Shown in pieces: positions 24,001-27,000 of a stretch of 64,000 nt of DNA; positions within the stretch are counted from its first letter, which is position 1, and the number at the start of each line of letters is the position of its first letter. The DNA is taken from NCBI RefSeq assembly GCF_057098645.1, contig NZ_CM169472.1. One strand, 5' to 3'. Made by a program: the position numbers.

Positions 24001-27000
24001 GTCACCAACTGGGCAACATTCTCCACGGGGCCAACGGAAAGTGTCTGTTGTTCGCCAGGCAGATAAATAGTCACCGTTCCTTGCGCAAAGGCATGGGGTG
24101 TCATTACGTAAAGTACGCTGGCAATGAAATACGACTGTAATTTATTCATGGTGCGGGTTTAAGAAACGTCATTTCTACGGGAATAACCCCTGCGCCTAAC
24201 ATTTGCCGACTTTGACGAACCTGGCCAGTAGCCGAATCGACCCAGAATGTGTTTTGCCACTGTTTTTCTGGTAGCGTGGAAGTCACCTCTTCCTGCCAGA
24301 CATTACACAGCACATCGCGACCCGCAATATGCAGCGTCTCTAATCCAGCAAAGGAAAAAGTGGAACTCAGGGTCGCAGAGCGAAAATGGTTGTCTTCACT
24401 CCAGAGAATATCGCGCGTCCAGCGGCTGCCGTCTTTTATTGTCAGCGCGTTACGCAGAGGGTCCTGCCCGGAATTTGTCACTTCCAGCAGATTATTATTA
24501 AGTTTGACGGTCTTTAAAAGACGTCCATTATGAGTAACCAGCATGGCGTTATCCTGGGATAACCATTTGCTTTGTTCTTGTTCTATATATCCCAGTACCA
24601 CAAAGATTCGTTGCCCTTCATTAAGGCGTAAATACATCGTGGAATAAGGCAACGCCTGGATCTGCTGATCCGCTACGGTGATATCCTGATTATCGAAAAG
24701 GCTGGCGCGAAATGTATCGACCATACTTTGCTGGCTGTGCGTACATCCCGCAAGAAATAGTGCGAAAATCGATAAAATAAGAGGGCGCACCTTTAATCCT
24801 TGAAAGGTTAATTAAAAAAATGCAAATCTCTAAAGCCCGGTACGAATATCGCAACCGGGTATTATTTAACTTTAATTTCGACGCGTTTAAGCAGAATTAG
24901 CGCGTAGTAGACGTGGTGGTTGAGGTGTTATGAGAACCGCCATCGCCACTGTCATTTGCTGCAACTACTGCCAACGTCGCCACACCAACAGCCGTTGCCA
25001 CACCGACAACTGTCGCCGTGCCGACAGCGCCAGCAGCCACGCCACCAGTGGTAGCAGCCGTCGTGGTTGCACCGGTAGTGGTCGTTGTGGTGCCAGTAGT
25101 ACCCGTCGTTGCCTCGGTCCCGTTTGCTGCTTCAGGGGCAGCAAACGCAGCTGGCGTCGTCAACATGAAGGCCATAAGGATTGCAGAAAGCTTGTGTTTC
25201 ATAACTTTTCCTTTATTCATCGCATGGACAATACGTACGCTTGAGATCAGGATTGTCTACTTTGAGTATAACATCCTTGTGAAATCTCCCTTTCCTCATA
25301 CCACTTGCACTATATACAGCGGGTGAGAAAGGCGCGCAGAGGGAAATATAAGATTGTTAACTATTCCCCTCTGGAAATACGACTCGTGAGCATAAGATAA
25401 ATCTTAGCAAAATACAAATTAAAGATAAGAAAATTGTTAAGAAAGCTATTAACTATTGTTGGTAATATAGTTTCAAGTGGTACTATAACTCGCTGTTAAG
25501 TGGCATTTATAACTATTAGTTGTAGAGATATTCGGTTAAATGGATTAGTTTCCTGGTGAAAAAGTAACTTGTGTTATAATGCATGGTGTTGACTATTGAA
25601 CTATGCCAATAAAACCAGTCAGCTTTAAACAAGCAGCGTCATATTAAGAGAGATAAACATTTGCCGCTGTTGGTCCTCGCAGGCCATTTACGCGGCAAAA
25701 TTCCACGCGTAATCCTGGTATAAGCACTTCTGCGTCGCGGGGAGTGAATGCGGAAATATGGACCTGAACTTCTTTACGACCGTCGGAGGGGATAATGAAT
25801 CCTTTGCCGCTTTTGCGATCAAAGGTTTTGACAATTCCTGTCATTTTACGGGACAAACAAATTCCTTACTGAAAATACTGCGCTGCACTATACGGGGTTA
25901 ATAAAATAAAGCCAGCGATATTTAAGACCGCCGGACGGCTAAAATAAAATTTGCTTAATCTCAATTATCATGCGTTAATAGCTGCGTCGGTTTGAAAGAC
26001 AGACAGCATACAAAGTAGTTTACTAAAGCAGTTCTCATTATCAGGCATTATCCCCTTCTTTTGAGTCTCTCTCCTGAACACTAAGTAGTTTCTGTATTAA
26101 AGCCCTGTTTGCCGAAAGGCCCAAAATGAAGGAAGTAAAATATGTCTAATAAAATGACTGGTTTAGTAAAATGGTTTAACGCAGATAAAGGTTTTGGCTT
26201 TATCACTCCTGATGATGGCAGCAAAGACGTTTTCGTCCATTTCACCGCCATCCAGAGCAATGAATTCCGCACGCTGAACGAAAATCAGAAAGTTGAATTT
26301 TCTATTGAGCAGGGGCAACGTGGCCCCGCGGCAGCGAACGTTGTTACGCTCTAAGGTTGCCGTTATTACTCAACATCTCCATTTCCGCTGTCCATGTTGT
26401 CATGGTTCACAGTACCGCACATCAGCATTCGATGTGACGGAGCGAAACCCTTTGGGCGCTAAGTGTATTTTTTGTAAATCGACGATGATCACCTTTGATA
26501 ACGTCGCGCTGCAAATACGCACTGACCATGCGCCGCTGGATTTCACAAAATAATATCAGGCTCCCTCGTGGAGCCTTTTTTATATCTGCCTTATTTTTCT
26601 TCAACGCTGTATGTATAGTAAGCGATAACCTGTTGATTATTGAATCTTTCGGGGAGATGGCTTATAACATTTCTTACCTGACCAGGGTACCGGGAACCAA
26701 CACCTTACTGGCGTGTTGCTGTCTTTCAAGACCAGACGAGGTTAACAGTGAATATTGAAGAGTTAAAAAAACAAGCCGAAACGGAAATCGCCGACTTTAT
26801 CGCGCAAAAAATCGCCGAGCTGAACAAGAATACAGGGAAAGAAGTCTCTGAAATTCGCTTCACCGCACGAGAAAAAATGACCGGGCTTGAAAGTTATGAT
26901 GTCAAAATCAAAATAATGTGATTTTGTGAACATCACCCCGTGCGAGGTGATGTTCCGCTTGTTGCTAATTTAGTGACCAATCATTGGCGCTTGTGGAATT

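What the first reader, a model, noticed from the sequence alone, without database searches (positions are those of the whole stretch)
24791..25643. gfc (group 4 capsule) operon with an uninterrupted promoter region and a threonine-rich GfcA
The region upstream of gfcA contains no insertion sequence, unlike the IS1-interrupted K-12 locus (recalled). Together with intact etp and etk, the capsule pathway is plausibly expressed here. GfcA has a mucin-like Thr/Gly/Ala tract whose length may vary.
Basis: partly seen in the sequence, partly recalled or inferred. Interest (0 to 1): 0.3.

Follow-up and report, generated by a model that had tools for sequence, protein, structure and literature searches.

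The report
Ordinary intact gfc capsule operon
This is the normal, uninterrupted form of the E. coli group 4 (O-antigen) capsule export operon and its upstream control region; most E. coli that carry the operon have this form, and mainly the K-12 laboratory lineage has an IS1 element there, so the finding is correct but already known.

Summary
On the minus strand the window carries etk, etp, gfcE, gfcD, gfcC, gfcB and gfcA, all full length. A 441-bp AT-rich spacer with no insertion sequence separates gfcA from cspH. The K-12 IS1D (768 bp plus a 9-bp target duplication) maps to window 25227-25235, 25-33 nt upstream of the gfcA ATG.

The uninterrupted state is the norm. About 88% of 3,614 gfc-carrying complete E. 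coli genomes are intact at that site, and the four split genomes sampled were all K-12-type strains. All of this is published.

GfcA is 28% threonine, but its length is almost fixed in E. coli (58 of 59 sampled alleles). The one length variant adds a VATAVG unit in the hydrophobic segment, not in the Thr tract.

"Plausibly expressed" is only partly supported. Published work shows that O157:H7, with the same uninterrupted spacer, transcribes gfcA about 30-fold less than EPEC. This window also has a rare GfcC P61L change in an invariant WWPGA motif.

My inference is that an invariant TGtTATACT element at 25265-25273 is the promoter. It coincides with a strong unassigned RpoS-holoenzyme binding peak in K-12. 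If so, IS1D sits in the 5' leader.

Low interest; already known.

The parts
17488..19668 (-). etk, BY-kinase (726 aa), last gene of the operon
   Evidence: Full-length ORF, identical to O145:H28 and Sakai Etk. NCBIfam NF007350 scores 1596 bits against a cut-off of 1248. K545, Y574 and the C-terminal Tyr cluster are present.
19688..20134 (-). etp, low-molecular-weight phosphotyrosine phosphatase (148 aa)
   Evidence: Identical to EPEC E2348/69 Etp. Pfam LMWPc and NCBIfam NF008486 both match. CX5R(S) at residue 13, D119 and Y121 are present.
20122..21261 (-). gfcE, Wza-like outer-membrane polysaccharide export protein (379 aa); carries the rare S32R change
   Evidence: Pfam Poly_export, SLBB and Wza_C match. 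One substitution (nt 21166) against O145, Sakai and EPEC. Only 3 of 5,426 genomes share the 49-mer.
21307..23403 (-). gfcD, YjbH-family outer-membrane protein (698 aa)
   Evidence: Pfam PF06082 E=4e-269. Identical to O145:H28.
23403..24149 (-). gfcC (248 aa); carries the rare P61L change in the WWPGA motif
   Evidence: Pfam GfcC N- and C-terminal domains match. PDB 3P42 matches at E=3e-147 and has P at this position. P is conserved in K-12, EPEC, Sakai, E. albertii and YjbG. The allele is shared by only one other genome, LR-48.
24146..24790 (-). gfcB, lipoprotein (214 aa, GTG start)
   Evidence: Pfam PF11102 E=6e-69. Identical to O145:H28.
24836..24859 (-). Conserved stem-loop in the gfcA-gfcB spacer; role unknown, possibly an intercistronic stabiliser or partial terminator
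   Evidence: It appears in both the minimum-free-energy and centroid folds. The stem is invariant in 7 sequences, with one G-U to G-C change in E. albertii. The 116-nt region as a whole is not significant (z=-0.9).
24897..25202 (-). gfcA: signal peptide, Thr-rich stretch, hydrophobic G/A/V segment and a T/S-rich tail (101 aa)
   Evidence: Translation. Identical to O145:H28 and Sakai GfcA. AAGGA lies 7 nt before the ATG at 25202; the in-frame ATG at 25220 has no Shine-Dalgarno sequence. Kyte-Doolittle 19-residue maximum is 2.16, centred on residues 72-73.
25203..25258 (-). Predicted 5' leader of the gfc mRNA (inferred)
   Evidence: Invariant from 25253 to 25203 among 8 E. coli alleles and 2 E. 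albertii alleles. No significant RNA structure (z=+0.79). No Rfam hit. No ops element.
25227..25235 (.). GACAATACG, the target site duplicated by IS1D in K-12; unoccupied here
   Evidence: Alignment with K-12 GM4792 and MG1655.
25265..25273 (-). Candidate extended -10 / sigma-S-type promoter element TGtTATACT (inferred)
   Evidence: Invariant in all 10 aligned alleles. The K-12 RpoS-holoenzyme gSELEX peak at 1,049,830 (intensity 167.2) maps to about window 25288 (PMC5493296).
25337..25373 (-). 12-nt inverted repeat with a 13-nt spacer (CAGAGGGGAATA...TATTTCCCTCTG); candidate operator or RNA hairpin
   Evidence: the repeat finder I1. RNA fold -18.1 kcal/mol, z=-3.1. The arms are kept in E. albertii while the spacer diverges, and a G-to-A change there makes a G:T position a Watson-Crick pair.
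25203..25643 (-). Whole 441-bp gfcA-cspH spacer, uninterrupted; the regulatory region of the operon
   Evidence: 35% GC against about 50-55% in the operon body. Present or absent together with the operon.
25644..25856 (-). cspH, upstream neighbour on the same strand; not part of the operon
   Evidence: Pfam CSD matches. RefSeq annotation of the homologous loci.

Best explanation
The region is the wild-type 5' end of the chromosomal gfcABCDE-etp-etk (group 4, O-antigen capsule) operon of an E. coli closely related to EHEC O145:H28. It sits in its usual place between appA and cspH.

Shown: all seven genes are intact. The 441-bp AT-rich spacer upstream of gfcA has no insertion. The site hit by IS1D in K-12 is unoccupied. 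This arrangement is the majority state in E. coli.

Inferred mechanism: transcription starts about 55 nt upstream of gfcA from an invariant extended -10 element, TGtTATACT (25265-25273, minus strand), whose hexamer is the one sigma-S prefers. The AT-rich DNA further upstream, including a conserved 12-nt inverted repeat, provides regulatory input; in LEE-positive strains Ler is reported to regulate the capsule (PMC10932389).

On this model the K-12 IS1D lies in the 5' leader at about +23 to +31. It separates the promoter from the operon rather than destroying the promoter.

GfcA is a small, signal-peptide-bearing, Thr-rich protein with one predicted membrane-spanning G/A/V segment. Its biochemical role is unknown. 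An uninterrupted spacer is needed for expression of the operon from its own promoter, but it does not guarantee a capsule.
For: Gene order, lengths and identity to annotated loci.

Domain content.

IS1 mapping.

Population frequency.

Literature for the K-12 IS1 and the operon's function: PMC2516531, PMC12428005, PMC8592465, PMC3853201, PMC4368438.

Promoter model:
- Conservation rises to 100% over the last ~50 bp and is at least 90% from 25290 downstream.
- TGtTATACT is invariant from E. coli to E. albertii.
- The same 120 bp is at least 99% identical in 3,597 of 3,614 genomes, while the distal spacer is only 90-95% identical in most.
- In K-12, the RpoS-holoenzyme gSELEX peak in the insB-cspH spacer (intensity 167.2; the largest peak in that set was 390) maps about 20 bp upstream of the element.

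Expression in a related lineage: GfcE and GfcD proteins were detected in EHEC.
Against: No transcription start site has been mapped here, and Peleg et al. 2005 could not be read.

The consensus promoter scan found no sigma-70 site on the minus strand of the spacer. The candidate has no recognisable -35 element and has T rather than C at -13.

gSELEX peaks on AT-rich DNA are not proof of a promoter, and the array resolution is coarse.

No intrinsic terminator was found after cspH, so read-through from cspH cannot be excluded.

Expression in this strain is uncertain. EDL933, with the same uninterrupted spacer length, is weakly expressed in vitro. The window has a private promoter-region SNP (25385) and the rare GfcC P61L and GfcE S32R changes.
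Confidence: 0.9

Rival explanations
1. The operon is structurally intact but silent or non-functional in this strain. No group 4 capsule is made under ordinary conditions, either because of H-NS/Ler-type repression of the AT-rich control region or because GfcC P61L (or GfcE S32R) disables an essential component.
For: EDL933 has an uninterrupted spacer yet shows about 30-fold lower gfcA mRNA than EPEC and no capsule stain (PMC3853201). An O26 EHEC was non-capsulated, and Ler is reported to regulate the capsule (PMC10932389).

The spacer is 35% GC. P61 lies in a WWPGA motif kept in YjbG (41% identity), E. albertii and PDB 3P42. The Leu allele is found in only 1 other of 5,426 genomes.

All seven genes are reported to be required (PMC3853201, PMC4368438).
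Against: GfcE and GfcD proteins are made by EHEC and increase in vivo. From my own knowledge of Shifrin et al. 2008 (not readable here), O157:H7 is reported to form a G4C.

A single Pro-to-Leu change need not abolish function, and its independent occurrence in LR-48 shows it is at least viable. No H-NS or Ler binding data were examined.
Confidence: 0.35
2. The functional gfc promoter is not the TGtTATACT element. It lies further upstream in the spacer, or transcription reads through from cspH. In that case the conserved proximal block is a long 5' UTR or regulator-binding region, and the K-12 IS1 acts purely by polarity.
For: No terminator-like site follows cspH. The 12-nt inverted repeat at 25337-25373 folds well as RNA (z=-3.1), as expected if it is transcribed. 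The candidate has no -35 element.
Against: The distal third of the spacer is poorly conserved between E. coli and E. albertii (27-50% invariant columns). The RpoS-holoenzyme peak maps to the proximal region. cspH is a weakly expressed cold-shock paralog (my own knowledge).
Confidence: 0.2
3. GfcA is a mucin-like carrier. Its Thr-rich periplasmic stretch is O-glycosylated, possibly with O-antigen, and handed to GfcBCD for export. On this view tract length would tune capsule properties.
For: Thr makes up 32% of the mature protein. The idea is raised as a speculation in PMC8592465. YjbE, the first gene of the paralogous operon, has the same layout and a similar GDG-S-x-NT-T(n) tail.
Against: No glycosyltransferase is linked to the locus, and there is no experimental evidence. 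The tract length is fixed in 58 of 59 sampled E. coli alleles, and the only variant lies outside the tract. The mixed Thr codons give no slippage substrate.
Confidence: 0.1

Closest known systems
gfc (ymcDCBA-yccZ-etp-etk) operon of EPEC O127:H6 E2348/69 (Peleg et al. 2005; Nadler et al. 2012; Larson et al. 2021)
   Same: Same seven genes in the same order between appA and cspH, with the same 441-bp uninterrupted spacer. Etp is identical. GfcE differs by 1 residue, Etk by 3, GfcA by 2, GfcB by 2, GfcC by 5 and GfcD by 4.
   Different: About 21 substitutions in the spacer. The window has GfcC P61L and GfcE S32R. EPEC expresses gfcA strongly in N-minimal medium; expression in this strain is unknown.
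gfc locus of EHEC O145:H28 (RM9872, RM13514) and O157:H7 Sakai/EDL933
   Same: Nearest relatives. There are 7 SNPs in 19.2 kb against RM9872. GfcA, GfcB, GfcD, Etp and Etk are identical to O145:H28. Sakai is 98.5% identical over 35.5 kb.
   Different: 4 of the 7 SNPs against RM9872 fall in the 441-bp spacer (25385, 25463, 25552, 25554). No complete genome has this exact spacer; the best match is 99.0%.
E. coli K-12 gfc locus with IS1D
   Same: Same genes and same flanks. GfcA is 101 aa with 2 substitutions.
   Different: K-12 has IS1D (768 bp plus a 9-bp duplication) at the site equivalent to 25227-25235, with insAB oriented away from gfcA. The window does not. About 6% of spacer positions differ.
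yjbEFGH exopolysaccharide operon (paralog of gfcABCD)
   Same: GfcC is 41% identical to YjbG. The YjbF and YjbH Pfam families hit GfcB and GfcD. GfcA and YjbE share a layout: signal peptide, S/T/G/A-rich stretch, AVGVA hydrophobic core and a GDG...T-rich tail.
   Different: GfcA does not match Pfam YjbE (PF11106), whereas YjbE does at 5e-33. Composition-corrected BLASTP finds no alignment. yjbEFGH has no linked wza-wzb-wzc homologs.
Group 1 capsule / colanic acid wza-wzb-wzc
   Same: GfcE, Etp and Etk are the corresponding OPX, phosphatase and BY-kinase. The NCBIfam Wzb and Wzc models also hit, below their cut-offs.
   Different: The best models are the Etp- and Etk-specific equivalogs. No ops/JUMPstart element is present in the gfc leader, unlike the wza leader, which is listed as an RfaH target (PMC9765446).

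Membership tests
gfc (group 4 capsule) operon | Seven co-oriented genes gfcA-gfcB-gfcC-gfcD-gfcE-etp-etk | tested here: met
   ORFs at 24897-25202, 24146-24790, 23403-24149, 21307-23403, 20122-21261, 19688-20134 and 17488-19668, all on the minus strand and full length.
gfc (group 4 capsule) operon | Chromosomal position between appA and cspH | tested here: met
   Collinear with RM9872, Sakai and E2348/69.
gfc (group 4 capsule) operon | Protein families: YjbF (GfcB), GfcC N- and C-terminal domains, YjbH (GfcD), Poly_export/SLBB/Wza_C (GfcE), LMWPc (Etp), Wzz/GNVR/P-loop kinase (Etk) | tested here: met
   All score above the Pfam gathering thresholds. The Etp and Etk NCBIfam equivalogs score above their cut-offs.
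gfc (group 4 capsule) operon | Catalytic residues: Etp CX5R, D119, Y121; Etk K545, Y574, C-terminal Tyr cluster | tested here: met
   All are present. The residue numbers come from PMC3366997 and, for Y574, from my own knowledge.
gfc (group 4 capsule) operon | Control region not interrupted by an insertion sequence | tested here: met
   441-bp spacer of the same length as in EPEC, Sakai and O145; no IS1 ends in the window.
gfc (group 4 capsule) operon | Wzx/Wzy-dependent O-antigen cluster in the same genome, supplying the polymer | not testable with these tools
   The rfb region is outside the 64-kb window.
gfc (group 4 capsule) operon | [quoted passage not shown] | not testable with these tools
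   This needs capsule staining or immunoblotting. The rare GfcC P61L change is a caveat.
YjbE family (Pfam PF11106) | GfcA matches the family profile | tested here: not met
   No hit even at E<=10, while K-12 YjbE hits at 5e-33. BLASTP with composition correction finds nothing. Only an uncorrected alignment and a shared layout link the two.
RfaH/ops-controlled polysaccharide operons | ops element GGCGGTAG on the non-template strand of the 5' leader | tested here: not met
   No match with up to 1 mismatch between 25203 and 25643. The only exact sense-strand copy in the operon lies inside gfcD at 21534-21541.
Sigma-S-dependent promoters | -10 hexamer TATACT with an A/T-rich discriminator, and RpoS holoenzyme binding | tested here: inconclusive
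   TGtTATACTCAAA is invariant. The K-12 gSELEX RpoS peak maps within about 20 bp. However, -13 is T rather than C, there is no -35, and no in vivo rpoS dependence has been examined.
Known cis-regulatory RNAs (Rfam 15) | A covariance-model match in the gfc leader or spacer | tested here: not met
   The only hits are the cspA thermoregulator at the cspG leader (25986-26408) and a sub-threshold isrG hit inside gfcA (15.5 bits against a threshold of 100).

The most novel reading that the evidence does not exclude
The invariant TGtTATACT element about 60 nt upstream of gfcA is the operon's promoter and is sigma-S-type. It is the same DNA as one of the strongest unassigned RpoS-holoenzyme binding sites in K-12 (the insB-cspH spacer, scored 'type C' with no target gene). 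If so, the group 4 capsule would be under general-stress or stationary-phase control, and the K-12 IS1D would sit in the 5' leader rather than in the promoter. Separately, this strain's rare GfcC P61L change at the invariant WWPGA motif could make it capsule-negative despite the intact control region.
Probability: 0.35. Interest if true: 0.3.

Novelty: already known. Interest (0 to 1): 0.1.

Why it matters
It matters little beyond annotation. The gfc operon, its role in O-antigen capsule export and the K-12 IS1 interruption have been in the literature since 2005. The uninterrupted form is what most E. coli carry.

The practical lesson is a caution. Absence of the K-12 IS1 does not predict encapsulation, because close EHEC relatives with the same intact spacer express the operon weakly in vitro.

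Two small leads could be useful to people working on this capsule. One is the likely promoter and its match to an unassigned RpoS-polymerase binding peak in K-12. The other is a rare GfcC P61L allele that could serve as a natural test of GfcC function.

Tried and rejected
- The primary papers (Peleg 2005, PMC1196049; Shifrin 2008, PMC2447026) are not held. The published promoter description could not be checked, so secondary citations were used.
- The consensus sigma-70 and terminator scan of 24700-26200 found nothing on the gfc strand in the spacer.
- The Rfam scan found nothing in the gfc leader.
- An ops/JUMPstart search of the leader was negative, so RfaH control was rejected.
- The predicted 5' leader and the cspH 3' region show no significant RNA structure (z=+0.79 and +1.34).
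- Pfam and NCBIfam give no family for GfcA. BLASTP against YjbE is negative with composition correction. The word-indexed homolog search returned mostly frameshifted or fused fragments and only Escherichia sequences, so a wider taxonomic survey of GfcA length was dropped.
- The AATAGTTA octamer occurs three times in the spacer. That looked like a regulator site, but it is not conserved in K-12 or E. albertii, so it is kept only as a side note.
- The literature search for H-NS, Ler, RcsB, RfaH or start-site data on gfcA found no direct promoter mapping.
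Full report
WHAT IS THERE

The window is E. coli chromosome. The segment around the finding is collinear with the appA-etk-etp-gfcEDCBA-cspH-cspG-ymcF-ymcE-gnsA-yccM-torS region of annotated genomes. It is closest to EHEC O145:H28, with 7 SNPs in 19.2 kb against strain RM9872 and about 100% identity over 42000-64000. It is 98.5% identical to O157:H7 Sakai over 35.5 kb. No complete RefSeq genome is identical to it.

The operon lies on the minus strand:
- etk 17488-19668
- etp 19688-20134
- gfcE 20122-21261
- gfcD 21307-23403
- gfcC 23403-24149
- gfcB 24146-24790
- gfcA 24897-25202

cspH (25644-25856) lies upstream on the same strand, and cspG (26142-26354) is divergent from it. 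The finding's coordinates, 24791-25643, therefore bracket exactly three things: the gfcA-gfcB spacer, gfcA, and the 441-bp gfcA-cspH spacer.

CHECK OF THE OBSERVATION

All seven genes are full length with no internal stops. Six of the seven proteins hit the expected Pfam families above threshold, and Etp and Etk hit their NCBIfam equivalogs. The Etp CX5R motif, D119 and Y121 are present, as are Etk K545, Y574 and the C-terminal tyrosine cluster.

The gfcA-cspH spacer is 441 bp in the window, O145:H28, Sakai and EPEC E2348/69, but 1,218 bp in K-12. The K-12 excess is a 777-bp block consisting of IS1D (768 bp, annotated in NC_000913.3) and a duplicated GACAATACG. That 9-mer corresponds to window 25227-25235, which is 25-33 nt upstream of the gfcA ATG. 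No IS1 terminal repeat occurs anywhere in the window.

GfcA (101 aa) has 28 Thr plus abundant Ala, Gly and Val.

HOW UNUSUAL IS IT?

It is not unusual. A 120-bp probe centred on the K-12 insertion site matched 3,614 of 5,426 complete E. coli genomes. In 3,194 of them (88%) it was continuous. About 418 genomes gave two places, split at exactly the K-12 position, and the four sampled were K-12-type laboratory strains (BW25113, an O16:H48 strain and others).

For the rest of the spacer, 3,495 of 3,717 genomes had at least 80% in one piece. About one third of E. coli lack the operon altogether. In those genomes the appA side joins directly at the cspH stop codon, so the whole spacer comes and goes with the operon.

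It is K-12 that is the exception.

GfcA TRACT LENGTH

In an even sample down the ranking of 3,606 matching genomes, 58 of 59 full-length matches had exactly the query length. The one exception, strain 1409, has +18 bp. Its protein carries an extra VATAVG unit in the hydrophobic segment (…VGVATAVGVATAVGVATL…), not in the Thr tract.

The Thr codons are mixed (ACG 12, ACC 9, ACT 5, ACA 2), and Tandem Repeats Finder reports only a weak 15-bp, 2.4-copy repeat. There is therefore no obvious slippage substrate. Between species the Thr-rich stretch does differ: E. albertii GfcA has 25-26 residues between the AP that follows the predicted signal-peptide cut and GGVAAG, against 31 in E. coli.

GfcA has no Pfam or NCBIfam family, including PF11106 (YjbE). 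It does share with YjbE the same layout: a signal peptide ending A(F/W)A-AP, an S/T/G/A-rich stretch, an AVGVA hydrophobic core, and a GDG…NT…T-rich tail. This shows only in an alignment without composition correction. A 19-residue hydropathy maximum of 2.16 centred on residues 72-73 fits one membrane span. Larson et al. speculate that the Ser/Thr residues might be modified by O-antigen (PMC8592465). Nothing here tests that.

ANATOMY OF THE CONTROL REGION

I aligned eight E. coli alleles (with IS1 removed from the K-12 one) and two E. albertii alleles. The cspH-proximal third of the spacer is poorly conserved, with 27-50% invariant columns. Conservation then rises, reaching at least 90% from 25290 downstream and 100% from 25253 to the ATG.

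The population data show the same pattern. The proximal 120 bp is at least 99% identical in 3,597 of 3,614 genomes, whereas the rest of the spacer is only 90-95% identical to the window in 3,119 genomes.

Within the conserved block lies TGtTATACT (25273-25265, minus strand), an extended -10 element whose hexamer is the one sigma-S prefers. It is invariant in all ten alleles. It has no recognisable -35, which explains why the consensus scan missed it.

Independent support comes from a published genomic SELEX study. In K-12, RpoS holoenzyme gave a peak of intensity 167.2 (the largest peak in that set was 390) at coordinate 1,049,830 in the insB-cspH spacer. The authors classed it as type C, meaning no downstream gene (PMC5493296). 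I mapped that coordinate using the MG1655 annotation and the paper's own cspH-cspG peak as an internal check of its coordinate system. It falls at about window 25288, roughly 20 bp upstream of the element.

I therefore infer the following, without having shown it. This element is the gfc promoter. The start site is near 25258, which gives a leader of about 55 nt. The K-12 IS1D sits in the leader at roughly +23 to +31, with insAB pointing away from gfcA. On this reading IS1D decapitates the operon and leaves an orphan promoter behind.

Several alternatives were tested and not supported:
- The leader has no significant RNA structure (z=+0.79).
- It has no Rfam match.
- It has no ops/JUMPstart element, so RfaH control of the kind seen for wza, kps, rfa and O-antigen operons (PMC9765446) is not indicated.
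- No terminator was found after cspH, so read-through cannot be excluded.

Further upstream there is a 12-nt inverted repeat (25337-25348 and 25362-25373). It folds at -18.1 kcal/mol with z=-3.1. Its arms are kept in E. albertii while the spacer between them diverges, and a G-to-A change there turns a G:T position into a Watson-Crick pair. It is a candidate operator or RNA hairpin of unknown role.

WILL THE CAPSULE BE MADE?

The uninterrupted spacer is necessary but not sufficient.

Evidence for expression:
- EPEC E2348/69 and S. sonnei, which have uninterrupted loci, make the capsule (PMC3853201, PMC4368438).
- Proteomics found GfcE and GfcD in an EHEC strain; the measured GfcE was 3.4-fold more abundant in piglets than in vitro (PMC3686733).

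Evidence against:
- O157:H7 EDL933 had about 30-fold less gfcA mRNA than EPEC and no capsule stain in N-minimal medium (PMC3853201). The O157:H7 spacer examined here (strain Sakai) is also 441 bp.
- An O26 EHEC was non-capsulated, and Ler is cited as a regulator of the capsule (PMC10932389).
- The spacer is 35% GC against 50-55% in the operon body, which is the kind of DNA that H-NS-family proteins bind. That last point is an inference.

This particular window also carries three private or rare changes:
- A unique spacer SNP at 25385.
- GfcE S32R, shared with 3 genomes.
- GfcC P61L.

P61 lies in a WWPGA motif that is conserved in K-12, EPEC (PDB 3P42), Sakai, E. albertii and the 41%-identical paralog YjbG. 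The Leu allele occurs in only one other complete genome, LR-48, on a different background. All seven genes are reported to be required for the capsule, so this substitution is a real caveat.

The O-antigen cluster, LEE and rpoS all lie outside the window.

COMPARISON AND VERDICT

This is a member of the gfc operon family on every sequence feature that could be tested. Capsule production and the O-antigen supply cannot be tested here. The locus differs from K-12 only by lacking IS1D, plus ordinary allelic divergence. It differs from its nearest relatives by a handful of SNPs.

The finding is correct and precisely placed, but it describes the ordinary, already published state of the locus. The part of the interpretation about tract-length variation is not supported in E. 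coli, and the expression claim needs the caveats given above. The only mildly new element is my inference that the orphan RpoS-polymerase site in K-12 is the gfc promoter.

Noticed in passing
window 23968 (gfcC codon 61): GfcC P61L falls in an otherwise invariant WWPGA motif. The motif is conserved in the YjbG paralog, in E. albertii and in PDB 3P42. Only one other of 5,426 complete genomes (LR-48, on a different background) has the allele. It may impair an essential capsule component.
   Followed up: yes
window 21166 (gfcE codon 32): GfcE S32R lies just after the lipoprotein Cys. O145, Sakai and EPEC all have Ser. Only 3 complete genomes share the 49-mer.
   Followed up: partly
window 25385, 25463, 25552, 25554: Four of the seven SNPs against O145:H28 RM9872 in 19.2 kb fall in the 441-bp gfcA-cspH spacer. 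The tetranucleotide at 25552-25555 differs among the lineages examined (window; O145/Sakai; EPEC; K-12-type alleles; E. albertii). The base at 25385 is unique to the window. No complete genome has this exact spacer; the best match is 99.0%.
   Followed up: partly
L007, L008, L009 (equivalent to window ~25203-25643): Independent IS1 events hit the same region in natural isolates. PK8277 has IS1A at about window 25497. 2023CK-01482 has IS1A with gfcA deleted. DETEC-P169 has IS1B with gfcA and gfcB truncated. CUVET21-424 also has IS1A. About 142 genomes show a split spacer away from the K-12 site. The AT-rich spacer looks like an IS1 hot spot.
   Followed up: partly
window 25337-25373: A 12-nt inverted repeat, CAGAGGGGAATA / TATTTCCCTCTG, has a 13-nt spacer. 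The RNA fold is -18.1 kcal/mol with z=-3.1. The arms are conserved in E. albertii while the spacer diverges. Its role is unknown; it may be an operator or a hairpin.
   Followed up: partly
window 25358-25365, 25450-25457, 25510-25517 (minus strand): The octamer AATAGTTA occurs three times in the spacer, all in the same orientation. The whole 64-kb window has four copies against 1.1 expected. The copies are not conserved in K-12 or E. albertii, so the pattern may be chance in AT-rich DNA.
   Followed up: yes
window 24836-24859 (minus strand): A conserved GC-rich stem-loop lies in the gfcA-gfcB spacer, with a T-run starting about 15 nt downstream. E. albertii shows one G-U to G-C change in the stem. 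It may be an intercistronic stabiliser or a partial terminator.
   Followed up: partly
L010 and L011 (equivalent to window ~25382-25404 and ~25585): ATCC 11303 has a 23-bp deletion in the gfc upstream spacer. EC20-4B-2 has a 7-bp insertion there.
   Followed up: no
L006:718-1041: Strain 1409 encodes a 107-aa GfcA with an extra VATAVG unit in the hydrophobic segment. This was the only length variant among 59 sampled alleles.
   Followed up: yes
window 25643-25646: In the roughly one third of E. coli genomes that lack gfc, homology to the window begins exactly at the cspH stop codon, with appA on the other side. The operon and its whole 441-bp spacer therefore behave as one presence/absence unit.
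   Followed up: partly
window 25986-26408 (+): Rfam cspA thermoregulator (RF01766, 158.8 bits, E=5e-43) covers the cspG leader and gene.
   Followed up: no
window 1-6800: This stretch is a mosaic of IS21-family (ISSso4-like istA/istB) and IS3-family (IS629/IS1203) elements. Part of it resembles a prophage tail-fibre region. No complete E. coli genome covers 80% or more of this stretch, so the arrangement appears specific to this strain.
   Followed up: partly
window 21534-21541 (minus strand): An exact ops-like octamer, GGCGGTAG, lies on the sense strand inside gfcD. Published ChIP data indicate that intragenic ops sites do not recruit RfaH (PMC9765446).
   Followed up: partly
window 42000-64000: Beyond position 42000 the window is about 100% identical and collinear with O145:H28 over the rut, put and efe genes. 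This is also the point (42346) where homology to Sakai ends; in Sakai the Sp5 prophage interrupts wrbA there.
   Followed up: partly
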